Part shown: positions 12,441-37,546 of the stretch, one piece after another
Layout of the letters: every line of letters starts with the position of its first letter
Numbering within the stretch: the stretch's first letter is position 1
From: Nemertoderma westbladi
Taxonomy: Eukaryota > Animalia > Xenacoelomorpha
Length of the DNA: 43,798 nt
Assembly: GCA_032718475.1 (NCBI GenBank)
Contig: JAUCBJ010006367.1
Location: forward strand, 1-43,798
Direction of reading: 5' to 3'
Notes under the pieces: model-generated
What the model was told of the DNA's origin: nothing
The model's database searches: none
The model's input: only the letters and a program-made list of their open reading frames with translations
Position numbers and translations under genes: made by a program

Positions 12441-14344
12441 TGCGAAGTTTCGAAACTGTGCGAGTAACTGCTGATACATCCATGTGGAGATGTGTGATAC
12501 AACGCCAACGCATCGTATGCCGATGTAGTAATATGGGTATTGAAATAATATTAAATCAATGTACACTCTTAAAGCTGCAGCGAAAAAATGTAGCTAATTT
12601 CCTAGGTTACATATAAAATAATAATATTATTTTTAAGAACATTAATTTTACTACTTTGCAAAAATTCAATTAAAAAATAACCAGACATATACATTGTGGA
12701 ATAAACTATTTCAGAAGCCTACAACAGCCATGCCATGGATTGTGGGGCGAGACACGTATGGCGAGCCATCAGCGAACTGATATAATTATACTATGGCCGT
12801 TTTTCAAAAGTCTGTGTGTGTGTGTCAGTGTGTGTGTCGGAAGCCATAATCGAAGTTAATATCTTCAGCTAAATTGTATGGTTGAGTCATTTTGAACGGT
12901 CTCTCCATGGAAATTAATTGTTTAGCACCAAACGATTAAAGTTATTTTGCACAGAAATTAGATATCTGGAATCCATGTACCCCATTCCATTATAGTTTTT
13001 TATTTTTTCAAGTGATTTGCGTTAATAAATGTATTTTTAATTGATTTAAACATAAATTAACTTTGTAAATTCATACGCTGATTCCATTCTCCCCCATAGA
13101 GCCTAAGGCATGGCAAGGGCAGCCGTGCCCAATAATATTTCTTGAAGTTTTACATTAGTAACATTGCAAGCTAAAGTCTTTGACCAAGCCAGTGCCTAGG
13201 CTAGTACACAAGGACATAGTAGTCCAGTAGAAGGAATAGTGCTCCTTCAATACATCTCAACAGACATCAATTCATTTGCCTGTGCCTACCAACGCGTGCT
13301 CCGTGGCAGATCAGATCTGCCACCAATATTTTGGCGGTAAATTCAAATCTGTTTTAACATTGAATACATGAATAGAGTAAGACTAATGTAATTCATTGAA
13401 TCAGAATAAATTATTTCTTATCGGTTTAATTCACTCATCCGTTATTGTTGTTATTGTTCGAGCAGCACGCGAACAACTAAGCTGACTGGTTAATTAGTCT
13501 GGGACACCGAGCAGCACGTGAACAACTAAGCTGACTGGTTAACTAGTCTGTGACTTCGAGCAGCACGTGAACAACTAAGCTGACTGGTTAACTAGAATGG
13601 GACATATCGAGCAAAATTGAGGGGGGGGGGGGGGGGGGGGGGTGTCGGCGGGATTTGTTTTAACTTCTATCACAGTAAAGTCTAGAACATTATAATCATA
13701 ACAATTATACACTTATACCTAGTATATTAATAGTAGATTTCAAGTGGATAAATAGAAAGGCGCAGTGAATTGATATATTTTTGGCGATTGATTCAAATTA
13801 CAGAATTATCATATTTCCATCACAAACTGTACACAGTGTGCTGCACTATGTACGTGAGTAACGTACTAAAAGGTCAAGGAGTTAGAGCAGTATACTTCAT
13901 ACTGTAAACTTCTTACTGTTGACTGTCAGACTGTAGTAGCTACTGCTACTGCATGTGCAGTAGGCCTTAACAGTTCAGTTTAGTTGTTCATGTGCTGCTC
14001 GAAGCCCCAGAATAGATAAAACAACAACAATAACGGATGAGTGAATTAAACCGATTAGAAATAATTTATTCGAATTCAATGAATTACAATACCGGTAGTC
14101 TTATACTGTTATAAGACGTATTCTATGCTGCTATCGCTATGTTAAAACAGATTTTAATTTACCGCCAAAATATAGGTGGTAGATAGGGCTCGATCGGAGT
14201 TGGGATTTGGCCGGAGCCGGAGCAGGAGCCGGAGTTGGACAATTTGGCCGGAGCCGGAGCCGGAGTTTTTGAAAAAATTTTAAAATTTAATTATTTATTT
14301 AAAAAAAAATAAAGTATGGTTATCGTTCGCCAATCGCTCATAAT

Positions 14345-15489
14345 TAGGGCTCAACAGAAGCTTCGGCTTCGGTTCGGTTCGGGCCGAAGTTTGGCAATTT
14401 CGGTTCGGTTCGGCTTCTGCAATTGATACTGCAGAAGCCCGGAGCAAACTTTGCTAAATATTCCAAGTATTACATTGACTGGATTGAGCTAAGACCAGAA
14501 GACAGTAAGACTAATCAATCTGTCCATCGTATCGTTGTACTAATTAATTTTGGGGTGTGTAAACGTTAAACAGACACTGGTGCAGAGCAGACAGTGGTGC
14601 AGACAGTGGTGCAGACACTGGTGCAGACAGTGGTGCAGACATTGGTGCAGACAGTGGTGCAGACAGTGGTGCAGACATTGGTGCAGACAGTGGTGCAGAC
14701 AGTGGTGCAGCGTGCAGACAGTGGTGCAGACACATGGTGCAGACAGTGGTGCAGACACCTGACAGCCTGATGCAGACAGTGGTGCAGACACTGTCTGCAC
14801 CAGTGTCTGCACGCTGCACCACTGTCTGCACCACTGTCCGCACCAGGTGTCTGCACCACTGTCTGCTTAACGTTTACACCCTTAATTTTGGACTCAACTT
14901 TCATTTAAATGGCATTATTGTTTTAATTGTTTCCAGTTTACTTGTGGGTAGTTTCAAAATTAGCATAATTATACAGTAGTTTAGGTTAGGCTAGATATTG
15001 CCATTTTACTTTGTACAGTAGTACCGGTACCTATTTTTTAATTAATCATAACTTTGATACATAATACCAAATATACCTACTACCTCATATAAATAGTATT
15101 ACAAAGACTACCTGTACTTTTAGTGAGGTTTTCTAAATTTGATGTCACTACTGTACGGCTTACTACGGGTGAAAATGTGGTGCATACAGTAAGTATACAG
15201 TATATAGTTTAGGTTAGTAATGGACAGTAATGTAAATATTGTCATTTTATTTTGTAGTACCGGTACTTATTTTTTTAATTAATCATAGCTCTCTCGCTAA
15301 GTCCGCAGACCAAATAGGTACCAGTCTGCCACTGCCAGTCAGCCAGTATAGTGACGTAAATACGAATTTATGACCATAACTTGCTAAATTCCTGAACTTC
15401 GGTTCGGATTCGGTTCGGTTCGGCCCGAAGTTGGCCCTGCTTCGGTTCGGTTCGGTTCGGCCCCATAAAGTGCCTTCTGTTGAACCCTA
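14345..15489. mobile_element. hAT non-autonomous element B nested in A
   Basis: TIR TAGGGCTCAACAGAAG / CTTCTGTTGAACCCTA (1 mismatch); 8-bp TSD CTCATAAT (14337-14344, 15490-15497); TTCGG subterminal repeats. Confidence 0.92.
14553..14881. mobile_element. MULE/foldback-like MITE built of inverted 12-bp arrays, nested in B
   Basis: GGGTG(TG)TAAACGTTAA ends; (CAGACAGTGGTG)n followed by its reverse complement; 9-bp TSD TTAATTTTG (14544-14552, 14882-14890). Confidence 0.85.
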
Positions 15490-16442: not shown

Positions 16443-16667
16443 ATGGCAAACGATGAGTTCGGAACATTGTTTATTCAAGCCCAAGAGAACGCAACCCAGG
16501 CCAACCAGCAGATTACGATTTTGCAAGACAATGTTCAGTCTTTGCAGTTTGAGATTATAAAGAATGCTAAACTTCATGCGCAACAACTAAACGTTGAACT
16601 CCATTCACAAGTGGACCAATTGAAAGATGAACTAATTGCATTGGAAATAACCAATGGAATTAAACAG
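16443..16667 (+). CDS. AIMP1: AIMP1 (p43/pro-EMAP II) coding exon 1
   Basis: Coiled-coil N-terminus ending ELIALEITNGIKQ (cf. ELIQAEIQNGVKQ); phase-0 donor CAG|GTGAGT. Confidence 0.85.
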
Positions 16668-16880: not shown

Positions 16881-17073
16881 TACGGATATTTGATACCAAG
16901 ATCTTCGCAAAAGCTCAATGAGGCCGATGGTTCCGAGGTCACTCAACAGATAGAGACAACTCCTACTGCTACTATTCCAAGTAAAGCTACCGGCACCTCG
17001 GATGTTGAAAAGTTGGATAAAATGAAATGTAAAAAACAACCCAAGGAACAAAATAAGAGTACTAATATAAAAG
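16881..17073 (+). CDS. AIMP1: AIMP1 exon 2 (Lys/Thr-rich linker)
   Basis: TTTTATTTAG| phase-0 acceptor, AAAG|GTAATT phase-1 donor; frame joins exons 1 and 3. Confidence 0.75.
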
Positions 17074-18053: not shown

Positions 18054-18172
18054 AGTACCTTTGCGGGTATTGTTACTGAGTTTACACTTGGATATAGTAC
18101 CTTTGCGGGTATTGTTACTGAGTTTACACTTGGATATAGTACCTTTGCGGGTATTGTTACTGAGTATACACT
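18054..18172. repeat. 42-bp tandem repeat, ~2.8 copies
   Basis: AGTACCTTTGCGGGTATTGTTACTGAGTTTACACTTGGATAT at 18054, 18096, 18138. Confidence 0.95.
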
Positions 18173-18723
18173 TTATCATTTTAACCTTCAACTGGTACAC
18201 AAAAGACAACTACACGTTGCGGGCCATGGGTGCGCTTCTCATCAGATTATAAATAAATAATACATATTTTTTTTATCTTTTACAATTAAAGATAAAGCAG
18301 CAAGTTGTATTTTAAAGAAACAATAAACGATTGGTAAAGTATTTAATTTAGCACCTGGGTGATTAATTAAGAATTAAGTTACAAAGCGCGGGACCGGCTG
18401 GGACCGCGGGGACGGCTGGGGCGCGGGACCTACTGACAGACTGGGACTAGTTTACGTTTCTGTTATTTTCTTCGCAAATTATTAGTAAAAGCGGAAATTT
18501 CAGGAAATCTTTCAAGGAAATTTCGGAATGTCTCCGGACTACCATTCCAATATTCCATCACAATTTCGTGAAATCTGTCCGGCGTATGCAGTGCTAGTCT
18601 GCCAGTGGTTTCTATTTCTAAAAAAATATTCGATCTGTTTACAAGTTTTCGCAGAAGCAAATCACGTACGACTTTAGTTTATTGTTTTGGTTTTGTTCAT
18701 CCACTTAACATCAACCATTGCAG

Positions 18724-18905
18724 ATAATATCGGAGGAGATGCTAAAACCCCTAACCCAGCGCGGCTAGACTTACGAGTTGCCAGAGTTTTATCGGCAAAG
18801 AAACACCCTGAGGCAGACACTCTGTATGTGGAAGAAATGGATTGCGGGGAGGATATGCCAAGAACTGTAGTTAGTGGTCTGGTAAAACACATTTCTGTGG
18901 ATGAG
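18724..18905 (+). CDS. AIMP1: AIMP1 exon 3 (start of EMAP II tRNA-binding OB-fold)
   Basis: [43 protein letters not shown]; TTGCAG| acceptor, GAG|GTAGGT donor. Confidence 0.93.
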
Positions 18906-19234: not shown

Positions 19235-19940
19235 TGTAAAGTAGCACATTACAATGCGATGATCCGAGTGGCTTTGTTACACGAACGAACGTTAGTGAGT
19301 GAGTGAAAATAAAGCCACGAGGATCAGAACACTGTAAAGTAGCACATTACAATGCGATGATCCGAGTGGCTTTGTTACACGAACGAACGTTAGTGAGTGA
19401 GTGAAAATAAAGCCACGAGGATCAGAACACTGTAAAGTACTTTGCAACAAGTATGTATGTAGTTTTATTCCAAAATTGTAACATTACGAAATGATTGTAC
19501 ATATATTATAAGTGATAGAAACTGCACAAATTAAATTAGTTGCTGAATAAATAAATGTAAAAATGACATAAATTATGTTATAAATAAGTTAGCTTATATT
19601 TATGGTGGCGTTTGGAGCCATGTTATAATAATATAGCTAGGCCCTACTGGATATTAATAGGTATACCCCGCCTACCGGTAGGTAATGCAGTAGGCCTATC
19701 TGGCTGTCAGGCAAATTTCCACCTATTGTTTACGTGGTATCCAATGACGGCGTTAAGAAATGTCCCCTTAGTGGACATTACTTAACACCGTCATGGGTTA
19801 CCACGTAAACAATACCACCAAATACAATACTAAATGTACAGGCCAATACAATGCTGTAATGTCCTCTAAAGTTGTAAAGTGCTAAATAACAACTCGCTGT
19901 TAATACTAACGGCGTTGAGTAATGTTACAATTTTGGAATA
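19235..19940. mobile_element. Unclassified interspersed repeat with a 98-bp tandem duplication; related copy at ~39077-39297
   Basis: 98-bp unit at 19235 and 19333; TTATTCCAAAATTGTAACATTAC (~19465) inverted at ~19918-19941; 19692-19940 matches 39077-39297. Confidence 0.7.
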
Positions 19941-20394: not shown

Positions 20395-22088
20395 CATTCC
20401 TTACCGGACGCTATTGTAACCCTTCCATTCCCTAGCGGACGCTATTGTAACCCTTCCATTCCCTACCGGACGCTATTGTAACCCTTCCATTCCCTACCGG
20501 ACGCTATTGTAACCCTTCCATTCCCTAGCGGACGCTATTGTAACCCTTCCATTCCCTACCGGACGCTATTGTAACCCTTCCATTCCTTACCGGACGCTAT
20601 TGTAACCCTTCCATTCCCTACCGGACGCTATTGTAACCCTTCCATTCCCTACCGGACGCTATTGTAACCCTTCCATTCCCTACCGGACGCTATTGTAACC
20701 CTTCCATTCCCTAGCGGGCGCTATTGTAACCCTTCCATTCCCTAGCGGACGCTATTGTAACCCTTCCATTCCCTACGGGACGCTATTGTAACCCTTCCAT
20801 TCCTTACCGGACGCTATTGTAACCCTTCCATTCCCTACCGGACGCTATTGTAACCCTTCCATTCCCTACCGGACGCTATTGTAACCCTTCCATTCCCTAC
20901 GGGACGCTATTGTAACCCTTCCATTCCCTACCGGACGCTATTGTAACCCTTCCATTCCCTACGGGACGCTATTGTAACCCTTCCATTCCCTACCGGACGC
21001 TATTGTAACCCTTCCATTCCCTACCGGACGCTATTGTAACCCTTCCATTCCCTAGCGGACGCTATTGTAACCCTTCCATTCCCTACCGGACGCTATTGTA
21101 ACCCTTCCATTCCCTACCGGACGCTATTGTAACCCTTCCATTCCCTACCGGACGCTATTGTAACCCTTCCATTCCCTACCGGACGCTATTGTAACCCTTC
21201 CATTCCCAACCGGACGCTATTGTAACCCTTCCATTCCCTAGCGGACGCTATTGTAACCCTTCCATTCCCTACCGGACGCTATTGTAACCCTTCCATTCCC
21301 TACCGGACGCTATTGTAACCCTTCCATTCCCTAGCGGACGCTATTGTAACCCTTCCATTCCCTACCGGACGCTATTGTAACCCTTCCATTCCTTACCGGA
21401 CGCTATTGTAACCCTTCCATTCCCTACCGGACGCTATTGTAACCCTTCCATTCCCTACCGGACGCTATTGTAACCCTTCCATTCCCTACCGGACGCTATT
21501 GTAACCCTTCCATTCCCTAGCGGGCGCTATTGTAACCCTTCCATTCCCTAGCGGACGCTATTGTAACCCTTCCATTCCCTACGGGACGCTATTGTAACCC
21601 TTCCATTCCTTACCGGACGCTATTGTAACCCTTCCATTCCCTACCGGACGCTATTGTAACCCTTCCATTCCCTACCGGACGCTATTGTAACCCTTCCATT
21701 CCCTACGGGACGCTATTGTAACCCTTCCATTCCCTACCGGACGCTATTGTAACCCTTCCATTCCCTACGGGACGCTATTGTAACCCTTCCATTCCCTACC
21801 GGACGCTATTGTAACCCTTCCATTCCCTACCGGACGCTATTGTAACCCTTCCATTCCCTAGCGGACGCTATTGTAACCCTTCCATTCCCTACCGGACGCT
21901 ATTGTAACCCTTCCATTCCCTACCGGACGCTATTGTAACCCTTCCATTCCCTACCGGACGCTATTGTAACCCTTCCATTCCCTACCGGACGCTATTGTAA
22001 CCCTTCCATTCCCAACCGGACGCTATTGTAACCCTTCCATTCCCTACCGGACGCTATTGTAACCCTTCCATTCCCTACCGGGCGCTAT
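20395..22088. repeat. 31-bp minisatellite, ~54-55 copies, derived from the MGAT1 3' coding end
   Basis: Unit CCGGACGCTATTGTAACCCTTCCATTCCCTA; overlaps the last MGAT1 codons. Confidence 0.97.
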
Positions 22089-23417
22089 GTGTATCCGTTT
22101 ACCTTTATAGTAGACCGATACTATCCCCTTATACGCGGTGCGCGGCACCCCCGCTTTAGTATCTAGCATTAACCCCATCGCGTTAGCTATACCCACGAAT
22201 TGATTGCGACTACCGTGGTAGAGTATAGTGAACTCGTTACTATCAGGCGACGGAAAACTCCAGTTTATAATATCGTCGTAGACGATAGTCGGAAGTCCAT
22301 AAACTCTGTCCACGAAAACCGACTCGTAATTGTCTTCCCGCAAGTAGGATAAATCCAGGGAATTAAACTCAACGTATTTCTTGTTTAAGTGAATTTTCTT
22401 GAGGAATGTATCGAAGAATTGTCCCTTACTGACGCCAACTCGCCCGAAGGTCTCGGTGCGCGGCACTTCTGGGCGCACGCACGAACGCCCACGCCGTTGG
22501 GGCGGCTCCCTCAACCAGTCGTCCCAGTAGCCGGACGGCCAGCTGGGTTCCAGCTCGTCCCACAGTCGGCGGGTCAGCATCCAACCCAACCCCGGAAAGA
22601 AATCGCTCCGGTACAACAGTTCCGGGCGGGATTCCTCTATAAACTCGGGAAGTCCGTTGTCGTTCCAAGCCGATACGCAGAACAGAGAAGAGTCGTTGCG
22701 TAGCAATGAGAAAGTCGCGGAAAAATAGTCGAAGAAATCTGGGGAGACTGATAAATCGTCTTCAACTATTATCGCCCCTTCGTACTGGGTTTCTGAGTGT
22801 TTGAACACTTGGTTGAGCGCCCATCTGTAGTGTCGGGCTATCTTATGATAACCTTGTTGCGACTGGTCAGACACCCCCTGGACGTCGCCCAATTCCGGCT
22901 GCTCTATGAGTCTCACTACCCCTGGGTTGGCCAGCACGTAGGTCTCTATAACCGCCTTGGTTTCGGCATGGCCACAATCCTGACTGACTATAATAGGGAA
23001 TGATGTACCGGCGGGTCGGTACTGGAGTAATGAGTCCAGACAACGGGCCACAGTGACCCGGTTACACGCAATAACAACCACAGGTATCGCCTGGGCTGAA
23101 CCTACATAAGGAGTAGCTTTAGTTTGGTTTTTAGAACCCTGTTGTATTTCATTCGGAGATGGAATATCTGATACAGTTATTCCCAACCTCTGCAGTCCTT
23201 CCTGTAAGATGTTCTGTAATGCCATCAATCTGTGTTGTTCTTCGGCTAATCGGCGGATCTCGTTAGATAAATCCGCGTTGTTTTGACGACACGAGAGGCA
23301 CATATTGTCTGGGTTTCCTCCGATTGTGGCGAATCCGCTTGTATGGAATATCAGTGCAACCATCATGATGAGTATGAAGGCTGCCACGGCATAGAGAATC
23401 CGATATTTGAACGACAT
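22044..23417 (-). CDS. MGAT1: Alpha-1,3-mannosyl-glycoprotein 2-beta-N-acetylglucosaminyltransferase (GnT-I), 457 aa, intronless CDS
   Basis: Type II TM anchor; IPVVVIACNR, FPIIVSQDCGH, KIARHYRWAL, IIVEDDL (EDD motif), CVSAWNDNG, LYRSDFFPGLGW, GVPRTAYKGIV. Confidence 0.97.
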   Translation of the reverse strand: MSFKYRILYAVAAFILIMMVALIFHTSGFATIGGNPDNMCLSCRQNNADLSNEIRRLAEEQHRLMALQNILQEGLQRLGITVSDIPSPNEIQQGSKNQTKATPYVGSAQAIPVVVIACNRVTVARCLDSLLQYRPAGTSFPIIVSQDCGHAETKAVIETYVLANPGVVRLIEQPELGDVQGVSDQSQQGYHKIARHYRWALNQVFKHSETQYEGAIIVEDDLSVSPDFFDYFSATFSLLRNDSSLFCVSAWNDNGLPEFIEESRPELLYRSDFFPGLGWMLTRRLWDELEPSWPSGYWDDWLREPPQRRGRSCVRPEVPRTETFGRVGVSKGQFFDTFLKKIHLNKKYVEFNSLDLSYLREDNYESVFVDRVYGLPTIVYDDIINWSFPSPDSNEFTILYHGSRNQFVGIANAMGLMLDTKAGVPRTAYKGIVSVYYKGKRIHIAPGREWKGYNSVR

Positions 23418-24549
23418 ATCAAGGCCAAGAGATCTTTATATTACATATCAATTAATTATCAGAACGATATCGGTACCGGTATAGCCTTAGGTCACAACGT
23501 CGCTACGTAATCGGATTACGTACCGGTATAAAATTCCGCTTTACTAATAATGCTAATGCTGTAGGGCCTAATGTGTAATGAATGTAGATGAGGTAGGCGT
23601 ACTCGTTTTTAAACTAAACTTCCTTTTTAGCTTTTTAGTCCAAAAACTGAAAAAGGAACTGCCATATATCTGTATATCAGTATATCAAACATTAGTTTTA
23701 CTTTAGCTTTAGGCCTATTACATGGCAGAAAGTATTTGCACACGTGTGTCAAGGCCTACCTGTACTCGACTACCGGTACGGGAGTGGCAGGAGGGGCAGG
23801 AGTCGATAAATCCATTTCTGACATTTTCATGGCCATATCTCTTCGTTCTGTTGCCACGGCAACGGGGTATTTTTTTATGTTATTTGATTCCCCGTGTAAT
23901 TAGTGGAAACCATGCACTATAGGCTTTCTAGGGTGGAGATCCGAAAGAAGTGATTTTTGTCAAGATTTGATTATTGCGGTAGACTGCTTGCTTCAGTGCA
24001 GCTTATTAGACAATTATTTTATTTTGAATTTAAAACCGGTTTAGTGAATCTATAGCTCTGCCCGTCCCGTAGTATAGTAGCCGTTAGCATGTTGTTAGCT
24101 AAGTATGAGGCGCCGTTGAAGCCAAAAGGTAAAAAAAATATTGAGATTACAAAATATGTTGAGATTTACGAAAAAGGTCAGATTTTTTCGGCCGAAATAT
24201 GGTTTTTCGGACGAAATTTGCCAGTTACGGTCGCAATTTTTTCAGCCGAATTAGGCTATTTTACACCGGTGCTAGATATTTATAAGCAGACAGGTAACAA
24301 ATCACACTAATATGCCCTAATCCCAATCCACACCCTATCTGTACTATTATGATACGCTATTATCTACTAGTACTTTTCTGCCGTAAAACGTATATTTCGG
24401 CCGTATATGGCAAATTTCGCCCGTAAAAAGCATATTTCGGCCGAAAAATCTTCATATATTTTTTGTAATCTCTATATTTTTTTGTAATCTCAATATTTTT
24501 TTTGTAAATTATTTATATATTTAGATGTTATTTTTATATTTATATTTAG

Positions 24550-24718
24550 CTTGTTGATTCTATGGTTGTTTTACTTTGCAATCTGAAACCGGCTAAGATG
24601 AGGGGTGTTGTTAGTTCAGCTATGGTGATGTGTGCGTCAACACCAGATAAGGTAGAACTGTTACAACCACCAGATGGCGCTGCAGTTGGTGATCGGGTTA
24701 CGTTTCCTTCTCACCCAG
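24550..24718 (+). CDS. AIMP1: AIMP1 exon 4
   Basis: [56 protein letters not shown](G); TTTAG| acceptor, CCAG|GTTAGT donor; absent from the ORF track. Confidence 0.95.
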
Positions 24719-27700
24719 GTTAGTGGTTACGGTGTGGTTCCGAGATCGGGTTAGGTTTCCTTCTCACCCAGGTTAGTGGTTATGGTTACGGTGTGGTTCC
24801 GAGATCGGGTTAGGTTTCCTTCTCACCCAGGTTATGGTTACGGTGTGGTTCCGAGATCGGGTTAGGTTTCCTTCTCACCCAGGTTAGTGGTTATGGTTAC
24901 GGTGTGGTTCCGAGATCGGGTTAGGTTTCCTTCTCACCCAGGTTAGTGGTTACGGCGTGGTTCCGAGATCGGGTTAGGTTTCCTTCTCACCCAGGTTAGT
25001 GGTTATGGTTACGGTGTGGTTCCGAGATCGGGTTAGGTTTCCTTCTCACCCAGGTTATTGGTTACGGTTACGGTGTGGTTCCGAGATCGGGTTAGGTTTC
25101 CTTCTCACCCAGGTTAGTGGTTACGGTTACGGTGTGGTTCCGAGATCGGGTTAGGTTTCCTTCTCACCCAGGTTAGTGGTTACGGTTACGGTGTGGTTCC
25201 GAGATCGGGTTAGGTTTCCTTCTCACCCAGGTTAGTGGTTATGGTTACGGTGTGGTTCCGAGATCGGGTTAGGTTTCCTTCTCACCCAGGTTAGTGGTTA
25301 TGGTTACGGTGTGGTTCCGAGATCGGGTTAGGTTTCCTTCTCACCCAGGTTAGTGGTTACGGTTACGGTGTGGTTCCAAGATCGGGTTAGGTTTCCTTCT
25401 CACCCAGGTTAGTGGTTACGGTTACGGTGTGGTTCCGAGATCGGGTTAGGTTTCCTTCTCACCCAGGTTAGTGGTTACGGTGTGGTTCCGAGATCGGGTT
25501 AGGTTTCCTTCTCACCCAGGTTAGTGGTTACGGTTACGGTGTGGTTCCGAGATCGGGATAGGTTTCTTCTCACCCAGGTTAGTGGTTACGGTTACGGTGT
25601 GGTTCCGAGATCGGGTTAGGTTTCCTTCTCACCCAGGTTAGTGGTTACGGTTACGGTGTGGTTCCGAGATCGGGTTAGGTTTCCTTCTCACCCAGGTTAG
25701 TGGTTACGGTTACGGTGTGGTTCCGAGTTCGGGTTAGGTTTCCTTCTCACCCAGGTTATGGTTACGGTGTGGTTCCGAGATCGGGTTAGGTTTCCTTCTC
25801 ACCCAGGTTAGTGGTTTCGGTTACGGTGTGGTTCCGAGATCGGGTTAGGTTTCCTTCTCACCCAGGTTAGTGGTTACGGTGTGGTTCCGAGATCGGGTTA
25901 GGTTTCCTTCTCACCCAGGTTAGTGGTTACGGTTACGGTGTGGTTCCGAGATCGGGTTACGTTTCCTTCTCACCCAGGTTAGTGGTTACGGTTACGGTGT
26001 GGTTCCGAGATCGGGTTAGGTTTCCTTCTCACCCAGGTTATGGTTACGGTGTGGTTCCGAGATCGGGTTAGGTTTCCTTCTCACCCAGGTTAGTGGTTAC
26101 GGTTACGGTGTGGTTCCGAGATCGGGTTAGGTTTCCTTCTCACCCAGGTTAGTGGTTACGGTTACGGTGTGGTTCCGAGATCGGGTTAGGTTTCCTTCTC
26201 ACCCAGGTTAGTGGTTACGGTTACGGTGTGGTTCCGAGATCGGGTTAGGTTTCCTTCTCACCCAGGTTAGTGGTTACGGTGTGGTTCCGAGATCGGGTTA
26301 GGTTTCCTTCTCACCCAGGTTAGTGGTTACGGTGTGGTTCCGAGATCGGGTTAGGTTTCCTTCTCACCCAGGTTAGTGGTTACGGTTACGGTGTGGTTCC
26401 GAGATCGGGTTAGGTTTCCTTCTCACCCAGGTTAGTGGTTACGGTTACGGTGTGGTTCCGAGATCGGGTTAGGTTTCCTTCTCACCCAGGTTAGTGGTTA
26501 CGGTTACGGTGTGGTTCCGAGATCGGGTTAGGTTTCCTTCTCACCCAGGTTAGTGGTTACGGTTACGGTGTGGTTCCGAGTTCGGGTTAGGTTTCCTTCT
26601 CACCCAGGTTAGTGGTTACGGTTACGGTGTGGTTCCGAGATCGGGTTAGGTTTCCTTCTCACCCAGGTTAGTGGTTACGGTTACGGTGTGGTTCCGAGAT
26701 CGGGTTAGGTTTCCTTCTCACCCAGGTTAGTGGTTACGGTGTGGTTCCGAGATCGGGTTAGGTTTCCTTCTCACCCAGGTTAGTGGTTACGGTTACGGTG
26801 TGGTTCCGAGATCGGGATAGGTTTCTTCTCACCCAGGTTAGTGGTTACGGTTACGGTGTGGTTCCGAGATCGGGTTAGGTTTCCTTCTCACCCAGGTTAG
26901 TGGTTACGGTTACGGTGTGGTTCCGAGATCGGGTTAGGTTTCCTTCTCACCCAGGTTAGTGGTTACGGTTACGGTGTGGTTCCGAGATCGGGTTAGGTTT
27001 CCTTCTCACCCAGGTTAGTGGTTACGGTGTGGTTCCGAGATCGGGTTAGGTTTCCTTCTCACCCAGGTTAGTGGTTACGGTTACGGTGTGGTTCCGAGAT
27101 CGGGATAGGTTTCTTCTCACCCAGGTTAGTGGTTACGGTTACGGTGTGGTTCCGAGATCGGGTTAGGTTTCCTTCTCACCCAGGTTAGTGGTTACGGTTA
27201 CGGTGTGGTTCCGAGATCGGGTTAGGTTTCCTTCTCACCCAGGTTAGTGGTTACGGTGTGGTTCCGAGATCGGGTTAGGTTTCCTTCTCACCCAGGTTAG
27301 TGGTTACGGTTACGGTGTGGTTCCGAGATCGGGTTAGGTTTCCTTCTCATCCAGGTTATTGGTTACGGTTACGGTGTGGTTCCGAGATCGGGTTAGGTTT
27401 CCTTCTCACCCAGGTTAGTGGTTACGGTTACGGTGTGGTTCCGAGATTGGGTTAGGTTTCCTTCTCACCCAGGTTAGTGGTTACGGTTACGGTGTGGTTC
27501 CGAGATCGGGTTAGGTTTCCTTCTCACCCAGGTTATTGGTTACGGTTACGGTGTGGTTCCGAGATCGGGTTAGGTTTCCTTCTCACCCAGGTTAGTGGTT
27601 ACAGTTACGGTGTGGTTCCGAGATCGGGTTAGGTTTCCTTCTCACCCAGGTTAGTGGTTACGGTTACGGTGTGGTTCCGAGATCGGGTTAGGTTTCCTTC

Positions 27701-29737
27701 TCACCCAGGTTAGTGGTTACGGTTACGGTGTGGTTCCGAGATCGGGTTAGGTTTCCTTCTCACCCAGGTTAGTGGTTACGGTTACGGTGTGGTTCCGAGA
27801 TCGGGTTAGGTTTCCTTCTCACCCAGGTTAGTGGTTACGGTGTGGTTCCGAGATCGGGTTAGGTTTCCTTCTCACCCAGGTTAGTGGTTACGGTTACGGT
27901 GTGGTTCCGAGATCGGGTTACGTTTCCTTCTCACCCAGGTTAGTGGTTACGGTTACGGTGTGGTTCCGAGATCGGGTTAGGTTTCCTTCTCACCCAGGTT
28001 ATGGTTACGGTGTGGTTCCGAGATCGGGTTAGGTTTCCTTCTCACCCAGGTTAGTGGTTACGGTTACGGTGTGGTTCCAAGATCGGGTTAGGTTTCCTTC
28101 TCACCCAGGTTAGTGGTTACGGTTACGGTGTGGTTCCGAGATCGGGTTAGGTTTCCTTCTCACCCAGGTTATTGGTTACGGTTACGGTGTGGTTCCGAGA
28201 TCGGGTTAGGTTTCCTTCTCACCCAGGTTAGTGGTTACGGTTACGGTGTGGTTCCGAGATCGGGTTAGGTTTCCTTCTCACCCAGGTTAGTGGTTACGGT
28301 TACGGTGTGGTTCCGAGATCGGGTTACGTTTCCTTCTCACCCAGGTTAGTGGTTACGGTTACGGTGTGGTTCCGAGATCGGGTTAGGTTTCCTTCTCACC
28401 CAGGTTAGTGGTTACGGTTACGGTGTGGTTCCGAGATCGGGTTACGTTTCCTTCTCACCCAGGTTAGTGGTTACGGTTACGGTGTGGTTCCGAGATCGGG
28501 TTAGGTTTCCTTCTCACCCAGGTTAGTGGTTACGGTTACGGTGTGGTTCCGAGATCGGGTTAGGTTTCCTTCTCACCCAGGTTATTGGTTACGGTGTGGT
28601 TCCGAGATTGGGTTAGGTTTCCTTCTCACCCAGGTTAGTGGTTACGGTTACGGTGTGGTTCCGAGATCGGGTTAGGTTTCCTTCTCACCCAGGTTAGTGG
28701 TTACGGTTACGGTGTGGTTCCGAGATCGGGTTAGGTTTCCTTCTCACCCAGGTTATTGGTTACGGTGTGGTTCCGAGATTGGGTTAGGTTTCCTTCTCAC
28801 CCAGGTTAGTGGTTACGGTTACGGTGTGGTTCCGAGATCGGGTTAGGTTTCCTTCTCACCCAGGTTAGTGGTTACGGTTACGGTGTGGTTCCGAGATCGG
28901 GTTAGGTTTCCTTCTCACCCAGGTTATTGGTTACGGTGTGGTTCCGAGATTGGGTAAGGTTTCCTTCTCACCCAGGTTATTGGTTATGGTGTGGTTCCGA
29001 GTTCGGGTTAGGTTTCCTTCTCACCCAGGTTAGTGGTTACGGTGTGGTTCCGAGATCGGGTTAGGTTTCCTTCTCACCCAGGTTAGTGGTTACGGTTACG
29101 GTGTGGTTCCGAGATCGGGTTAGGTTTCCTTCTCACCCAGGTTATTGGTTACGGTGTGGTTCCGAGATTGGGTTAGGTTTCCTTCTCACCCAGGTTATTG
29201 GTTACGGTGTGGTTCCGAGTTCGGGTTAGGTTTCCTTCTCACCCAGGTTAGTGGTTACGGTGTGGTTCCGAGATCGGGTTAGGTTTCCTTCTCACCCAGG
29301 TTAGTGGTTACGGTTACGGTGTGGTTCCGAGATCGGGTTAGGTTTCCTTCTCACCCAGGTTAGTGGTTATGGTTACGGTGTGGTTCCGAGATCGGGTTAG
29401 GTTTCCTTCTCACCCAGGTTAGTGGTTACGGTTACGGCTTGATTCCGAGATCGGGTTAGGTTTCCTTCTCACCCAGGTTAGTGGTTACGGTTACGGTGTG
29501 GTTCCGAGATCGGGTTAGGTTTCCTTCTCACCCAGGTTAGTGGTTACGGTGTGGTTCCGAGATCGGGTTAGGTTTCCTTCTCACCCAGGTTAGTGGTTAC
29601 GGTTACGGTGTGGTTCCGAGATCGGGTTAGGTTTCCTTCTCACCCCGGTTAGTGGTTACGGTTACGGTGTGGTTCCGAGATCGGGTTAGGTTTCCTTCTC
29701 ACCCCGGTTAGTGGTTATGGTTACTGTGTGGTTCCGA
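24691..29737. repeat. 52-59 bp minisatellite, roughly 85-90 copies, made of the AIMP1 exon-4 end plus donor
   Basis: Main 59-bp unit GATCGGGTTAGGTTTCCTTCTCACCCAGGTTAGTGGTTACGGTTACGGTGTGGTTCCGA; the first unit starts inside exon 4. Confidence 0.97.
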
Positions 29738-30317
29738 TAGGTGGATGCCGCACCGAACCACATATTCTTAGAAACTCAATATTCGCCAATATGTGACTTG
29801 ACACGGATTCGATGCCCGTCGTTTCCGAATTATAAATTTTTGCACTTCAGTTGTTGTATCTATTACAGCAAACCCATAAGAATTGAAATCAATGGTTTAA
29901 CTGACATCCGCTAGAGGGATAAATTTATACTAAACATTAAGATTTTCCATTTCTTTTTTAATACGTTCTATACTAGCCAAATAGATGTATCTTTGTGATG
30001 ACGCTGGTTCATATATCTACAGTCATGTCTGTCACGGGACACAGTTTTGTCAGCAGTTCTTTATTATGCCGCTAGATGTCAAAATGGCTGAAAATGAAAA
30101 CCTTCAGCCATTTCGTTGTTTATAATCATTTCGAGCTGTTACCTTGTAGAAATTTTGGCTGGGTGGTTGGTTGTGCTTGTCCGTATACGGTTACCGTTTA
30201 GCAAGAGGGCGAAATTTTTTAATTTTTATAAGATGTACTTTAAAATCACAGATACTTAACTTAGGGCCTACATCTGGTAACGTCTGATAGTATTAATTTC
30301 TACAAACTTTCCTTTAG

Positions 30318-30484
30318 GTCACCCAGATGAGCAACTTAACCCAAAGAAGAAAATATGGGAAGGAATTCAATGCGACCTTAAGGTGTCTGGAGATGGTATA
30401 GCGACTTATAAAGGAGACCCATTTACTGTCAGTGGTAAAGGGGTCTGTACGGCCTCTACTCTCAGACTGTGTGGAATTAGATAG
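30318..30484 (+). CDS. AIMP1: AIMP1 exon 5 (last); spliced product 311 aa
   Basis: GHPDEQLNPKKKIWEGIQCDLKVSGDGIATYKGDPFTVSGKGVCTASTLRLCGIR*; TTTCCTTTAG| phase-1 acceptor. Confidence 0.95.
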
Positions 30485-30810
30485 CAGGACTTTGATTCTT
30501 TGTGCTGTAATTGGTTACGGTTTGATTCACAAGTGAATATTGTATCGGTGAATCATACTTTGTTCTTGACACATAAACATGAAATGTTTCAGAAAATACT
30601 TTTTTTTCACTTGAAATGAATTAAATACATTTGGTAACCAGTTGAAATCGCGAGATGATAACGATGACAAACTACTGTGTAAATATAGATAGATAGGCCT
30701 CATGTTGCACTTAATTGTGCCCTGAATTACGCCGATATATTTATAAGTTTAAGCTTTAGTATGGAATGCGCTGGACACTGTTAGATATTATTCAGCTATT
30801 TATTCTTCCG

Positions 30811-30900
30811 CTAATAGAGATTAGTTTTCTTCATTATTCTAAGAAATTCTGCCTCGTTAATCTCACCATCACCATCACGGTCTGCTTCATCGATCATCTC
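30811..30900 (-). CDS. CETN2: Centrin (CETN1/2 type), last exon
   Basis: EMIDEADRDGDGEINEAEFLRIMKKTNLY*; TTTAG| acceptor. Confidence 0.93.
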   Translation of the reverse strand, partial: EMIDEADRDGDGEINEAEFLRIMKKTNLY

Positions 30901-31191: not shown

Positions 31192-34100
31192 GGCTCATTC
31201 CAAAGTAAAATACGGGATTTTCGTACACAATTTTGAACTGTGATTGCCTATGTACAATGTTATCCACAGCACATATGTGAACAAAATTGTGCCTGGATTG
31301 AATTTTCGAATATCAGCTTTGATTTCGCTAAGATTATGGTGGGAGTCACTTTTGAGAAAACACCAGCTTGTCCAATTAAGGTAAAGTACGAATTCGTACG
31401 AAATGGTTTTTTTTATTTTATGATTTCAATTCTAAAATTTAGCGAATTATGCGCAGGTACGGTGATGAGTTGATGTTTGGGATAAAGCTGTATTATTAAG
31501 CTTAAAAAAATATATAAATATCAGACGAATTGCTGCATTGCTAATTTTTTACAGTGTGGTGTGTGTGGTTAAAGTATGGGACATTGCTAGGTAAAGTACG
31601 GGACCTTAACGAATTGTATGGTCAAAATGGTCTCTTACACTGTTGGGGGTGCCCCCGGGGCAAATACCACGTCCTGGTTTGCATTCTACAGGGTGGATGT
31701 GGATGTCACAGTAGAGTTAGATTTGGATACCATCACCCATCTAGTCCTATTATACTCCGATGCACATGACCCACCATGGGCTATGCAGCTCTTCTATTCG
31801 GCCATGCACTGCATCCTTAACTGCAGGTTCATATCGAAGTGGCGTGAACTCTGAAGATAAATGTGAGCCCTTTACTCCTTCTCATCTAGGGCCTACCTGG
31901 TCGGGCACGCAATATACCCATGCTTCCGAGTATATGGGTCCTTAACCCGGCCATAACGGATAAGGTGTCCCACTTATAAGCCAAGATGATGATGCCCTCT
32001 GTAAGAAGAGGGTCTACACAGCTGCAGGCTCATTCCAAAGTAAAGTACGGGACATTCGTACACAATTTTGAAATTTGATTGCCTGTACAATGTTATCCAC
32101 AGCACATATGTGCACAAAATTGTGCTTGGATTAAACTTTCGAATATCAGCTTTGATTTCGCGAAGCTTATGGCGGGACTTAGTCACTTGAGAAAACGCCA
32201 GCTTGTCCAATTAAGGTAAAGTACGGATTCGTACGAAATGGTTTTTTTTATTTTATGATTTCAATTCTAAAATTTAGCGAATTGTGCGCAGGTACGGTGT
32301 TGAGTTGATGTTTAGGATAAAGCTGTATTATTAAGCTTAAATAAAAATATAAATATAAGACGAATTGCTGCATTACTAATTTTTTACAGTGTGGTTTCTG
32401 TGGTAAAGTATGGGACATTGCTAAGGGACATCGTTGCTATCGTACGGGACCTGTACGAATTTTATGGTCAAAATTGTCTCTTACACTTAACCTAACAGTA
32501 ATTTCTGGATAATTAGTGATAATGAAGTGCAACTACGTATTTCCAACCAAGATATGGATGCAAAATGTGGGGCGACCCACAAATTGACCAGAAGTCTTAG
32601 CATATGGGTCCCCTTGAGGAGTTCTATGTTATCTGTCATCTGTCTAATTTTTGATCGCTAATTCTGTATAACTCGGTCATTTATATATGAAATTAAACCA
32701 AACCTGGTACGTATGAAGTCTGTCAAAAGTTTGGAAAGAATCTGAGGTTTAAGGAATCAAAGGTCACATATCAGACAGTCTGTCTGTTGGTACTGATAGT
32801 TTGAAAAAAAATTTTGATAAAAACCGAAATAAGTCCACCAATCTTTGATGAAATATAACCAAACTTGGTACATGTATTCTGTGAAAAGTTTAGAAATTCT
32901 TTCCATTTTTCTGAAAATGTATCAATTACTGTACTAACCGATCTTCTTATCTGCTAAAAAACTAAATTTTTTGAAATTTGTTGTAAAGTACGGGACTTTA
33001 CATGCATAAACTCAAAGATTAGTTAAGGGGGGGGGGGTACACCATTTTGGTCCAAAATATGTCGAAATTTTTTTTATGGTCTATTATAATGCACCATTGA
33101 ATGGTGTTTCCAAATCTGAAAACCGCTATTTAATAGCCCTTTTAGTTTTCAAGTTATGTAAATTTCCATTTAGGGAATCCTATTGAAATTACTATTACTA
33201 CAGTATGTATAATGAAAGGTTGATTATCTCCAAATATTTTTTTTATGAAATTGTCAACTTCAAAACCCTACTACTTCTACAATTTTTGAGTAATTAGTCT
33301 GAAACTTCCTGTGGGTGTCTAGATAGCCACCCTGCATAAAAGTATCAGGCAACTTTTCGGAATTTTTTGTTAATAAAATTTAATACTATTTATAAAATAC
33401 CTAAAAATTAGCATAAATTTGCAGCGCCACCTAGCGGTGCAGAATTATTTTAACAAAATTTCGCCTGATAGTTATGTTGCGCCATCTTTGATCTATCATA
33501 TAAAAAAACTTTCATGTGATTAGAATCAAAACTGTAAAAGCCTTAGGGTTTTAAGCGCAACCAAGTTTTTTTTGTTGTTAACTAGTATTAACTAATATTA
33601 AATAGCGGAAAATTTTTTTTTCTGACCTGTCATGTAGAATAGCATCTTAGGCACCTAAATGCCAAATTTTAGCCAAAACCAAACAATTTTGAAACGCTGA
33701 GAGTGATAAATCGAAGAGTTGTCCGAAAATGGTGTACCCCCCCCCCCCCCCCCCCCCCCCCCCCCTTAACTGAGGAATGATTCTTAGTTCAAATGCATAC
33801 TTCTATGCTTCCCCCTACTATCACCCTAAAGCATTATAACACTCCTGCCCTCCAGGTTTCATATATTACATTAATACAGTGCACTAATGTAATCGCCATT
33901 ATAATGGTAAAGTATGGGACAATTTTCAATTGGTCGTCATAATGTTTCTGAGGGAGTAGATTATGAAACTACAGGTAATTGTTTCTTAAGATGACGCAAC
34001 ACAAACGTGCTTTGCATTCCACTGGGTGATTGGGCTTAGTTAGACTACTTCTCTGTGTATAAATTAAAAATTTCACTATTTTTTGGTAAAGTATGGGACT

Positions 34101-35155
34101 TTACATGCATAAACCCAAAGATTTCTTGACCGAGGAATGATTCTCAGTTCAAATATAGACTCATATTCTTACGGCCTACTATGACCTTAGAGTATTATAA
34201 CACTCCTGGCTTCACATATTACATTAATACAGTGCACTAATATAATCGCCATTTTAATGGTAAAGTATCGGACAATTTTCAATTGGTCGTCATAATGTTT
34301 CTGAGGGAGTAGATTATGAAACTACAGGTAATTGTTTCTTAAGATGACGCAACACAAACGTGCTTTGCATTCCACTGGGTGATTGGGCTTAGTTAGACTA
34401 CTTCTCTGTGTATAAATTAAAAATTTCACTATTTTTTGGTAAAGTATGGGACTTTACATGCATAAACCCAAAGATTTCTTGACCGAGGAATGATTCTCAG
34501 TTCAAATATAGACTCATATTCTTACGGCCTACTATGACCTTAGAGTATTATAACACTCCTGGCTTCACATATTACATTAATACAGTGCACTAATATAATC
34601 GCCATTTTAATGGTAAAGTATGGGACAATTTTCAATTGGCCGCCATGATATTTCTGAGGGAGTGAAGATGAAACTATTTGTTTTATACGATGACGCAACA
34701 GAAACGTGCTTTGCATTCCACTGGGTGATTAGGCTGAGTTACATCTCTGTGAATAAACTAAAAATTTCACTATTTCAGGTAAAGTATGGGACATCACAAG
34801 ATTAACTTTATCGATTTCATTACAGAGGAATGAAACACTGGTGAAATTAAATGAAACCAAAAAAATTCGAAAATGGGTTTGCTTGTGATTTGGTACATGC
34901 TCAGAAATGTTAATTTATTGGTCATAGGAAGTGCCTACAGGAAACGAAACTTTTGCACACTTTTATTCACATTTTGAGCAGAGCAGGTGCATAATTTGTA
35001 ATTCGACTATTTTTGATAAACCACCTGTGTTGATACAATTTTTAGCACTGAATTCATGAAGTACGATAAATTTTGAACTAAAATAAGTATAAATTCAAAG
35101 CTACATCTCATTTTTAGAAATTAGTGGGGAGGTTGACCTTTTCATGGAATGAGCC
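31192..35155. mobile_element. Composite non-autonomous DNA transposon (possibly PIF/Harbinger-like) with duplicated left end and 353-bp internal repeats
   Basis: TIR GGCTCATTCCA / TGGAATGAGCC; ~31192-31642 repeated at ~32028-32486; recurring GTAAAGTAYGGGAC motif; 353-bp period (34088 vs 34441). TSD unclear (ATT/AAT). Confidence 0.7.
33027..33765. mobile_element. Kolobok-like MITE inserted in the composite element
   Basis: Poly-G-TACACCATTTT / AAAATGGTGTA-poly-C TIRs; TTAA TSD (33023-33026, 33766-33769); interrupts a unit that is uninterrupted at ~34090-34150. Confidence 0.85.
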
Positions 35156-35795: not shown

Positions 35796-35933
35796 CTGAA
35801 GTTCTTCGTCTGTCATTGTTTCTCCCAGTTCGTTCGCTACACGTTTCAAATTACTGAATGATATCTTCCCGGTTTTATCGTCGTCGAAAAGACGAAATGC
35901 TTTGAGGATTTCTTCTCCTGTGTCTTTCTCCGT
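35796..35933 (-). CDS. CETN2: Centrin, penultimate exon
   Basis: [46 protein letters not shown]; TTTGCAG| and |GTAATA, phase 0. Confidence 0.95.
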
Positions 35934-36244: not shown

Positions 36245-37546
36245 ATGCGGTGGTTGGCTGCTGTTATCCGGTGCAAACCGCACCGCTTGCCGCGTAACAT
36301 CGAAACTCCCCCGTCTTACATAACGACAATCGTTACCGCAGGAAAAAAACCCGGGAATATTAATTATTTATCGATCCCTCAAAGAAACTACTGCGGTTCA
36401 GTAAACTCCTGTAGGAGGAATATATCCGCGAATTCCAACAGGAATATATTATCGACGCTAATCGGTTTACCGGCACGTCGCAGTATGGTAAGTTCCGTAC
36501 CGGTACGTTGCTTGAGTTCCGGTGATACACTGCGGATTCCGATTGAATCGTTACCGGTTGTTGATTCCAATACCTTCGATGCAATAGCTGATACGGCCTC
36601 CTCTGGAGCAGAAAGTATCACATCCCTAGGTCTCGGTGGTTATTCGCCCAGTGGGTTGGTCCAATCGTTCCTCGAATACATCCATCTAACAACCGGTCTT
36701 GGGTGGTGGGCAACTATCATTGTGTACGCTGTAATGCTCCGTCTTCTATTGGTTCCCATTAATATTCGCACCCAACGTTTCTGTATCGTCTTAAGTAATG
36801 TACAACCGGAAGTCATGCGACTGAATAAACGTATTATGAAGGCCCAACAGGAGGGTAATATGTTAGAATCTTACACAATCCAAAGGCAATTAATACAACT
36901 GCAGCAGAAACACGGTATAAGTCATCATACAATGATGTTGCCACTTTTGATACAGGCACCTCTGTTTCTGTCCACATTCGCCGCTCTCAGAGGAATGTGC
37001 TATCTCCCTGTTCCTTCAATGACCACTGGAGGCGTCGCTTGGTTTGCTAATCTTTGTGTGGCCGACCCTTTCTATTTGTTGCCACTGGCAACGTCTGTCA
37101 CACTATGGATAGTCTTAGAGATGGGTACCGAAATGGCATTAACTCCTACTCAACAACCCAAGTTCATGAAGTACATATTCCGGGCAATGCCAGTTATTGT
37201 TTTTACTTTTATGCACGGCTTTCCTGCTGCAATGTGTCTATATTGGTTTACCAGTAACTTTATTGTTAGTTTACTCGGTGTTGCAATCCGCACCTTCCCT
37301 AAGTTCTTTAACTTGCCGGAGAGAGTGGTTCATCCATCAACTGATCAACCCGATATGTTGAACCCGTGGAATCAAGTGAAGGAGATGTGGGGAGAACAAA
37401 TGAAACGGGTGCAGAAACAGTCAATTGATGATATTATGAAACGCGTTGAGGAACGTAAGGCTGCGATAGCTGCCGACAAAACGCGGGATGTAGAGGGTCA
37501 GACAAGGACACCTCCAAACAGAATTCAGTCGAATAACAAAAAGTAG
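36245..37546 (+). CDS. OXA1L: Mitochondrial inner-membrane insertase OXA1L, 433 aa, intronless CDS
   Basis: Arg/Ser-rich presequence; LGLGGYSPSGLVQSFLEYIH..GLGWWATI, PLLIQAPLFLS.F.ALRGM, GGVAWF.NL...DPFYLLP, FPAAMCLYWFTSN. Confidence 0.95.
   Translation: MRWLAAVIRCKPHRLPRNIETPPSYITTIVTAGKKPGNINYLSIPQRNYCGSVNSCRRNISANSNRNILSTLIGLPARRSMVSSVPVRCLSSGDTLRIPIESLPVVDSNTFDAIADTASSGAESITSLGLGGYSPSGLVQSFLEYIHLTTGLGWWATIIVYAVMLRLLLVPINIRTQRFCIVLSNVQPEVMRLNKRIMKAQQEGNMLESYTIQRQLIQLQQKHGISHHTMMLPLLIQAPLFLSTFAALRGMCYLPVPSMTTGGVAWFANLCVADPFYLLPLATSVTLWIVLEMGTEMALTPTQQPKFMKYIFRAMPVIVFTFMHGFPAAMCLYWFTSNFIVSLLGVAIRTFPKFFNLPERVVHPSTDQPDMLNPWNQVKEMWGEQMKRVQKQSIDDIMKRVEERKAAIAADKTRDVEGQTRTPPNRIQSNNKK

What the first reader, a model, noticed from the sequence alone, without database searches (positions are those of the whole stretch)
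24691..29737. AIMP1 intron 4 is mostly a chain of ~85-90 back-to-back acceptor|donor sites: candidate tandem recursive-splicing array
Seen: the exon-4 end TTTCCTTCTCACCCAG looks like a polypyrimidine tract plus CAG, and it was amplified with its donor GTTAGT. Each 52-59 nt interval is therefore GTTAGT...TTTCCTTCTCACCCAG, a complete mini-intron abutting the next with a zero-length exon. Retaining any unit gives CCA GGT TAG, an immediate in-frame stop, so full-length AIMP1 needs either strict first-donor use across ~5.6 kb or removal of all units. The last two units mutate CAG to CCG (~29641, ~29701); the last intact site is at 29588. The exon allele GTTACGTTT survives in a few units (~25960, 27921, 28327, 28445). 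Established: recursive AG|GT ratchet sites and intron gain by duplication of AGGT are known. I know of no described array this dense; function is inference. Copy number could tune NMD or truncation of the EMAP II domain.
Basis: partly seen in the sequence, partly recalled or inferred. Interest (0 to 1): 0.85.

Follow-up and report, generated by a model that had tools for sequence, protein, structure and literature searches.

The report
Splice-donor "mirage" repeat in AIMP1 intron
In an animal's AIMP1 gene the end of exon 4 and its splice signal are repeated 87 more times through the next intron; assembled sequence from two likely RNA samples joins exon 4 cleanly to exon 5, so this is likely a tolerated example of a repeat type known from lancelet and human genes, probably cut out in one piece rather than step by step.

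Summary
The array is real. It has 88 junctions (86 CAG|GT including the true donor, the last two CCG|GT) and 87 units of 52-59 nt, filling 90% of AIMP1 intron 4. Each unit is the last 28 nt of exon 4 plus the intron start. Three DNA runs hold the unit at 11-67 times single-copy depth, which suggests length variation. Two RNA-like runs join exon 4, with its own marker base, straight to exon 5. This build is a known class: lancelet "mirages" and the human F7/CBS/6-16 minisatellites, mostly spliced at the first donor. The scan has noted it many times, in this genome too (unchecked notes). The acceptor-like look comes from Phe-Pro-Ser-His-Pro codons. It meets a published recursive-site motif, but it is unlike this animal's acceptors and shows no significant extra conservation. 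Recursive splicing is not refuted, because it gives the same mRNA, and array RNA in one run is about 10-fold lower than the window's allele predicts. A shorter allele, 3' bias or antisense centrin RNA explain that as well. Verdict: new member of a known kind; stepwise removal about 12%.

The parts
16443..16667 (+). AIMP1 coding exon 1 (predicted; N-terminal part)
   Evidence: ATG to CAG|GTGAGT; joins into a 311-aa open frame; no Pfam hit
16881..17073 (+). AIMP1 exon 2 (predicted)
   Evidence: AG/GT borders and open frame
18724..18905 (+). AIMP1 exon 3, first half of the tRNA-binding (EMAP II) domain
   Evidence: PF01588 profile positions 1-42, E 1.6e-11
24550..24718 (+). AIMP1 exon 4 (169 nt); its last 28 nt (24691-24718) are the exonic part of the repeat unit; marker base C at 24701
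   Evidence: PF01588 46-96; human AIMP1 204-257, E 5.6e-21; covered with 0 other letters from 24556 by the spliced contig of X4
24719..24724 (+). Authentic intron-4 donor, CAG|GTTAGT
   Evidence: spliced contigs of X4 and X5 leave exon 4 here for exon 5
24691..29737 (+). Minisatellite ('mirage'): 87 further copies of exon end plus intron start; 85 internal CAG|GT and 2 CCG|GT
   Evidence: unit contigs in DNA runs X1, X2, X3
29589..29737 (+). Distal edge: two units ending CCG and a final partial unit that runs into unique intron sequence
   Evidence: at least one CCG unit in contigs of X2, X3 and X4; the CCG-to-CCG step was seen in X4 only
29738..30317 (+). Unique 3' part of intron 4 with the real acceptor (TTTAG|GT, itself an AG|GT)
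   Evidence: unspliced or antisense contig at depth 30.8 in X4
30318..30484 (+). AIMP1 exon 5, coding part to the stop
   Evidence: human AIMP1 260-311, E 1.4e-15; spliced contigs
30811..30900 (-). Last coding exon of a convergent centrin-like gene; contigs run continuously from AIMP1 exon 5 into it, so it is a possible source of antisense RNA over intron 4
   Evidence: contigs of X4 and X5 run from the AIMP1 3' end into this exon and on into the exon at 35796-35933; EF-hand hits for that exon

Best explanation
The array is a minisatellite whose unit is the last 28 bases of AIMP1 exon 4 plus the first 24-31 bases of intron 4, likely variable in length between animals and likely neutral, and the spliceosome probably takes the first donor and removes the 5.6-kb intron in one piece. 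Shown: the anatomy, the array in three DNA runs, and a clean exon 4-exon 5 join carrying the exon's marker base in two RNA-like runs. Inferred: (1) origin by one short duplication across the exon-intron border, then expansion and homogenisation by slippage or unequal exchange, with the distal edge decaying; (2) first-donor choice by exon definition and 5'-to-3' scanning, as shown for human F7; (3) the acceptor-like look is a by-product of pyrimidine-rich Phe-Pro-Ser-His-Pro codons and the usual CAG exon end, and is used at most as low-level noise.
For: The unit spans the boundary. Units average 1% substitution distance from the commonest unit, and variant blocks recur. X4 contig, depth 4571, runs through exon 4 with 0 other letters into exon 5. 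X5 contig, depth 214, gives the same join. X4 is a different study from X5. Depth ratios of 11, 16 and 49-67 against 58 expected for the window's allele suggest about 17-25 junctions in one sample and 75-102 in another (weak, contig depth). All 7 real acceptors examined in the window have 5-37% G+C and no other AG closer than -23. The commonest unit has 53% G+C, and 83 of 88 junctions have an AG at -18/-19. Splice-signal positions are not significantly spared: 3 of 16 distinct substitutions against 6.0 expected, P 0.10; without CpG sites 3 of 11 against 4.7, P 0.23; two of the three deletion types also hit the signals. In human, 55.6% of constitutive exons end in AG and 10.2% of cassette exon ends score as acceptors (PMC10156609). 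Precedent: PMC1557585, PMC3087553, PMC3902484.
Against: The mature join is the same whichever route removes the intron. In X4, array-unit contigs are only 5-7 times the depth of the unique 3' intron part, against about 57 for the window's allele, the direction recursive removal predicts. The junctions do meet the published recursive motif, with 12 of 13 pyrimidines, and keep a TNA branch motif at -19. The shortfall of substitutions in splice signals is in the direction of selection, though not significant. In 6-16 and CBS the next two donors are used as well (PMC1557585 introduction), so strict first-donor use is not general. Both runs are contigs labelled 'DNA?'; rare or NMD-degraded forms would be lost.
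Confidence: 0.78

Rival explanations
1. A substantial share of transcripts lose the array stepwise. Exon 4 is joined to an internal CAG, which rebuilds the same donor, and this repeats until the last intact site (29588); a final 729-nt piece is then removed. Jumps over several units are likelier than single 52-59-nt introns.
For: 86 of 88 junctions meet Y5+ N0-4 YAGGT. 74 of 88 rebuild the authentic donor hexamer. X4 holds a contig from the last CCG unit to exon 5 (depth 30.8), while array units are about 10-fold scarcer than the window's allele predicts. UBC shows that tandem AGGT sites can act as donor and acceptor (PMC10809524). Human recursive sites were found in introns of median 3.4 kb (PMC10156609).
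Against: X4 also holds CAG-type array junctions with array sequence upstream, at about 5 times depth, which a pure last-step intermediate lacks. Short alleles seem to exist (X1, X3). Antisense centrin read-through or 3' bias could also give the 3' intron contig. The units' acceptor context is unlike the 7 real acceptors. Nearly all fly recursive segments exceed 1 kb (PMC6110457). Donor mirages elsewhere are tolerated with no reported need for an acceptor (PMC1557585).
Confidence: 0.12
2. Downstream donors are used at a rate that rises with copy number, giving a 257-residue truncated product or NMD substrates, so array length tunes AIMP1 dose.
For: Donors 2-6 all give a stop right after ...PSHPG, 51-274 nt before the last junction. 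Second and third donors are used in human 6-16 and CBS (PMC1557585 introduction). Array length seems to vary.
Against: No contig joins an array-allele unit to exon 5 in X4 or X5; the CAG-unit contig of X4 continues into the next unit. In F7 the choice falls on the first site whatever follows. With scanning, only the nearest units would matter, not the total number.
Confidence: 0.07
3. The array is an assembly artefact or greatly inflated in this assembly.
For: X1 and X3 depth ratios (11, 16) are well below the 58 expected. No long read spanning the array could be examined.
Against: Twenty distinct unit types in a non-periodic order. X2 ratio of 49-67 fits the window's length. Unit contigs are present in all three DNA runs laid.
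Confidence: 0.03

Closest known systems
Lancelet 'mirage' minisatellites (Adh3, globins BflGb6/BflGb9, troponin C, PGBD5). PMC3087553: 6 passages seen. PMC3902484: 1 passage seen.
   Same: Tandem copies of an exon-intron boundary; many units keep AG/GT signals; copy number differs between haplotypes; cluster edges escape homogenisation; regular splicing reported.
   Different: 88 junctions over 5 kb here, against 3-6 units in BflGb6; the copied exon end here has an unusually clean pyrimidine run before CAG; the host is not identified as a lancelet.
Human F7 intron 7 37-bp VNTR, with CBS intron 13, 6-16 (IFI6), LMNB2 and PDGF as cited there. PMC1557585: abstract, synopsis, introduction and 12 passages seen.
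   Same: The first unit spans the exon-intron border, so the donor is repeated downstream; polymorphic length; the most upstream donor is used (plus the next two in CBS and 6-16).
   Different: 5-9 to about 25 units there; the F7 unit holds only 4 exonic bases and a TGG|GT donor, so no acceptor-like end; here 28 exonic bases with a pyrimidine run.
Tandem dual-specificity (AGGT) splice sites of human UBC. PMC10809524: part 1 of 7 and 12 passages seen.
   Same: Head-to-tail repeats, each bounded by AGGT.
   Different: UBC has 9 coding units, and its splicing gives a ladder of mRNAs; here the units are out of frame, stop-bearing, and only one mature join was seen.
Recursive splice sites (ratchet points) of flies and human, including distal exonic sites. 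PMC6110457 and PMC10156609: passages seen.
   Same: Pyrimidine run plus YAG|GT that would rebuild a donor.
   Different: Known sites are few per intron (up to seven high-confidence in flies), segments nearly all over 1 kb, conserved, and shown by junction reads, lariats or sawtooth cover. None of that is shown here.

Membership tests
Mirage / exon-intron-boundary minisatellite | Tandem unit spans an exon-intron boundary of the host gene | tested here: met
   28 exonic plus 24-31 intronic bases, 87 further copies
Mirage / exon-intron-boundary minisatellite | Splice signal is repeated in the units | tested here: met
   GT in 88 of 88 junctions, the authentic hexamer in 74
Mirage / exon-intron-boundary minisatellite | Mature mRNA has the regular exon join | tested here: met
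   exon 4-exon 5 contigs in X4 and X5, the 2 runs that behave as RNA among the 6 runs laid
Mirage / exon-intron-boundary minisatellite | Copy number varies between alleles | tested here: inconclusive
   depth ratios 11, 16 and 49-67 and differing CCG-unit paths suggest it, but contig depth is not a copy number
Mirage / exon-intron-boundary minisatellite | Homogeneous interior, divergent edge | tested here: met
   mean substitution distance 0.010; CCG only in the last two junctions
Recursive splice site | Motif Y5+ N0-4 YAGGT | tested here: met
   86 of 88 junctions
Recursive splice site | Junction reads or lariats to internal sites | not testable with these tools
   only assembled, unstranded contigs were served
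Recursive splice site | Sawtooth RNA cover across the intron | tested here: inconclusive
   X4 array contigs at 5-7 times the 3' intron depth, against about 57 expected; that animal's allele is unknown
Recursive splice site | Site conserved beyond its surroundings | tested here: inconclusive
   within the array, 3 of 16 substitutions against 6.0 expected, P 0.10; P 0.23 without CpG sites; no related species' DNA available
Recursive splice site | Spacing typical of known sites (segments nearly all over 1 kb in flies) | tested here: not met
   52-59 nt against PMC6110457
UBC-type dual-specificity array | Ladder of mature isoforms differing by whole units | tested here: inconclusive
   only the unit-free join was seen in X4 and X5; contigs drop rare forms and NMD could remove them
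Chain of 52-59-nt mini-introns | Unit length within the intron sizes this species splices | not testable with these tools
   no genome held; the shortest AIMP1 intron is 213 nt

The most novel reading that the evidence does not exclude
A self-ratcheting mirage: because the copied exon end is also an acceptor, the 5-kb array is removed in steps that each rebuild the donor, ending at the last intact CAG. Splicing would then be blind to copy number, and this would be the densest recursive-splicing array known and a route by which such satellites grow at no cost.
Probability: 0.12. Interest if true: 0.7.

Novelty: new member of a known kind. Interest (0 to 1): 0.2.

Why it matters
As it stands it is one more large mirage minisatellite, in a genome that seems full of them (unchecked scan notes list arrays up to about 2,100 copies). 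Its modest value is as a test piece. The exon carries a marker base that 83 of 87 copies lack, and the first unit (53 nt) differs from the commonest one (59 nt). Ordinary stranded reads with matched DNA could therefore tell first-donor splicing, downstream-donor leak and recursive jumps apart. If stepwise removal were shown, it would tie minisatellite growth to recursive splicing, a link that my searches did not find in print.

Tried and rejected
No whole genome is held, so there was no genome-wide scan for similar arrays and no intron-size distribution. No holder was listed as RNA; X4 and X5 are read as RNA only because their contigs skip introns. Absence of a contig is not evidence: the DNA runs showed no exon-4 contig, and an X4 unit contig seen was missing. 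The lack of X4 cover over 23606-24485 is therefore not counted. RNA structure hiding the pseudo-sites: rejected; unpaired probability of the pyrimidine run was 0.54 at the true donor against 0.50 (mean of 82 array junctions), and of the donor 0.36 against 0.45. G-quadruplex as the driver: not supported; G4Hunter mean 0.24, best window 0.80 (the usual cut-off of about 1.2 is recalled). The array's C-to-G change at -18 as a killer of the branch point: weakened; a TNA motif stays and AGs near a branch point can be bypassed (PMC2991248); the preference for a pyrimidine after the branch A is recalled. Organism: MGAT1 hits are 44-56% identical, spread over vertebrates, insects and a mollusc (120 of 1066 listed); no close named relative, so the host is left as a non-model animal. 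PMC13196383 (9 passages) does not link repeats to recursive splicing. No supplements were read; the UBC paper's table of introns in tandem repeats might hold closer cases.
Full report
Observation. The window is animal DNA; MGAT1 has only distant named relatives (44-56% identity, 120 of 1066 hits listed). Five exons (16443-16667, 16881-17073, 18724-18905, 24550-24718, 30318-30484) give a 311-aa frame. Exons 3 and 4 match PF01588, and exons 4 and 5 match human AIMP1 204-257 and 260-311, so the gene name holds. Intron 4 is 24719-30317. The array has 88 junctions: 86 CAG|GT counting the true donor, and two final CCG|GT. The 87 intervals are 59, 53, 52 or 58 nt, in 20 types, and cover 89.6% of the intron. 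Two small errors: 14 of 88 junctions do not start GTTAGT, and 14 of 87 units would stop after 11-47 residues rather than at once.

Anatomy. The unit is the last 28 nt of exon 4 joined to the first 24-31 nt of the intron. 83 of 87 copies differ from the exon at one base (C at 24701 in the exon, G in the copies), which serves as a marker. Units average 1% substitution distance from the commonest unit, variant blocks recur, and the AG is lost only at the distal edge. This is the pattern of a young, homogenised minisatellite with a decaying edge (inference; the edge effect is described in PMC3087553).

Sequencing runs. Eight runs were listed, five hold the stretch, from three studies, and none is on record as RNA. 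Six were laid, all as contigs. DNA-like runs X1, X2 and X3 hold unit contigs at depth 258, 1322 and 245 against single-copy depth 23, 20-27 and 15. The window's allele predicts a ratio of 58; the runs give 11, 49-67 and 16, or about 17, 75-102 and 25 junctions. X1 and X3 are one sample. This supports the array and suggests length variation, weakly, since contig depth is not a copy number. X4 and X5 skip introns and so behave as RNA. In X4 a contig of depth 4571 covers 24556-24720 with no other letter and continues into exon 5. In X5 a contig of depth 214 gives the same join. The mature mRNA therefore has the exon's marker base and no retained unit.

What speaks against the simple reading. X4 also has a 658-nt contig (depth 30.8, 0.7% of the spliced contig) from the last CCG unit through the unique intron to exon 5. 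It ends exactly where spliced and unspliced forms merge (30345). Array contigs in X4 have depth 159 (CAG junction), 210 (shared unit), 82 and 46 (CCG units). The CAG and shared contigs are 5-7 times the unique part, where the window's allele predicts about 57. Early removal of the array would look like this. So would a short allele in that animal, 3' bias, or antisense read-through from a convergent centrin-like gene whose last exon is at 30900-30811 and whose contigs run continuously into the AIMP1 3' end. A pure last-step intermediate would lack CAG junctions with array sequence upstream, and these are present. Unstranded contigs cannot decide between these.

Is the unit end an acceptor? It meets the motif used by PMC10156609 (Y5+ N0-4 YAGGT) at 86 of 88 junctions. 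The same motif occurs 8 times on the + strand outside the array, including the real intron-4 acceptor. That paper reports AG at the end of 55.6% of constitutive human exons and an acceptor-level score for 10.2% of cassette exon ends. An acceptor-like donor mirage is thus expected by chance among many mirages (inference from human figures). The pyrimidines are the codons for F-P-S-H-P, which align with human F-D-A-F-P. The 7 real acceptors examined (4 AIMP1, 3 centrin-like) have 5-37% G+C in the 43 nt upstream and no other AG closer than -23. The commonest unit has 53% G+C, and 83 of 88 junctions have an AG at -18/-19. This is a small sample, and a TNA branch motif remains at -19, so the site is not excluded (PMC2991248). 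Splice-signal positions carry 3 of 16 distinct substitutions against 6.0 expected (P 0.10), or 3 of 11 against 4.7 once CpG sites are set aside (P 0.23); the donor and the pyrimidine run also carry deletions. There is no significant sign of selection on the signals. Folding shows no masking of pseudo-sites. Whether this species splices 52-59-nt introns could not be tested; a human threshold near 65 nt and a general animal floor near 30 nt appear in search listings only (PMC4463651, PMC13644364).

Mechanism. Most likely (0.78), one duplication across the exon-intron border seeded a minisatellite, which expanded. The spliceosome defines exon 4 with the first donor and removes the intron whole; the other sites are ignored or used as noise. 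The anatomy and the mature join are shown; the one-step route is inferred from F7, where minigenes showed that only the most upstream working donor is chosen (PMC1557585). Rivals: substantial stepwise removal (0.12), copy-number tuning through downstream donors and NMD (0.07; donors 2-6 give a 257-residue product), and assembly artefact (0.03).

Comparison. The build matches lancelet mirages (PMC3087553, PMC3902484) and the human F7, CBS, 6-16, LMNB2 and PDGF arrays; four of five defining features were met and length variation was inconclusive. PMC3087553 already notes that many mirage units keep AG/GT signals without disturbing splicing. UBC is a tandem array of AGGT sites used both ways, but coding and in register (PMC10809524). 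For recursive sites the motif is met, the spacing is not (PMC6110457), and the defining RNA evidence could not be obtained. Searches found no paper showing recursive removal of an intronic minisatellite; most subscription papers and all supplements were not seen. Unchecked notes of this scan describe the same build in other genomes and in at least nine other pieces of this genome, some far larger. They gave me the name 'mirage', which I checked in the papers; I did not test their loci.

Verdict. Observation confirmed; interpretation partly supported; new member of a known kind; interest 0.2. The recursive reading stays open at about 12% and can be tested cheaply with the marker base and the 53-nt first unit.

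Noticed in passing
window 22044-23417 (-) and 20395-22093: An MGAT1 gene with an unbroken coding frame (PF03071) is nested antisense in AIMP1 intron 3. A 31-bp, 55-copy array starts in its last ten codons; the out-of-frame second copy supplies the last residues and the stop. The X4 contig ends 58 nt beyond 22110, about where it would merge with the array. This is a second array seeded at a coding-exon end, here with no AG|GT junction.
   Followed up: partly
window 24691-29737 and 20395-22093: Both large arrays carry GGGTTA (telomere-repeat-like; recalled) on the sense strand of their genes; the hexamer occurs 13 times on both strands in 37 kb outside them. Noticed after the fact, not tested.
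   Followed up: partly
window 24719-29737: 5 of 16 distinct substitutions in the array are C-to-T or G-to-A at CpG, which hold 8 of 59 positions (P 0.055); a hint of germline methylation.
   Followed up: partly
window 30484-30900: AIMP1 (+) and a centrin-like gene (-) are convergent, and contigs run continuously between them; X5 assembles both into one contig. Minus-strand poly(A)-type hexamers lie at 30799, 30218, 30060 and 29957.
   Followed up: partly
window 36245-37546 (+), 42484-43506 (+), 7950-9020 (-): Long uninterrupted frames: an OXA1-like gene (PF02096) nested in a centrin intron, a papain-family protease (PF00112) and the start of a BLTP1-like gene (PF20413).
   Followed up: no
window 14571-14866: A 12-bp array (17.6 copies) followed at once by its inverted copy, a possible long hairpin.
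   Followed up: no
window 2-235, 13459-13604, 18054-18173, 19235-19439, 33850-34792: Further tandem repeats of 21, 49, 42, 98 and 353 bp: the region is repeat-prone in general.
   Followed up: no
window 843-1670 and 3170-3448 (+): A 275-aa frame without a Pfam hit and a downstream H-type lectin frame (PF09458) may be two exons of one gene.
   Followed up: no
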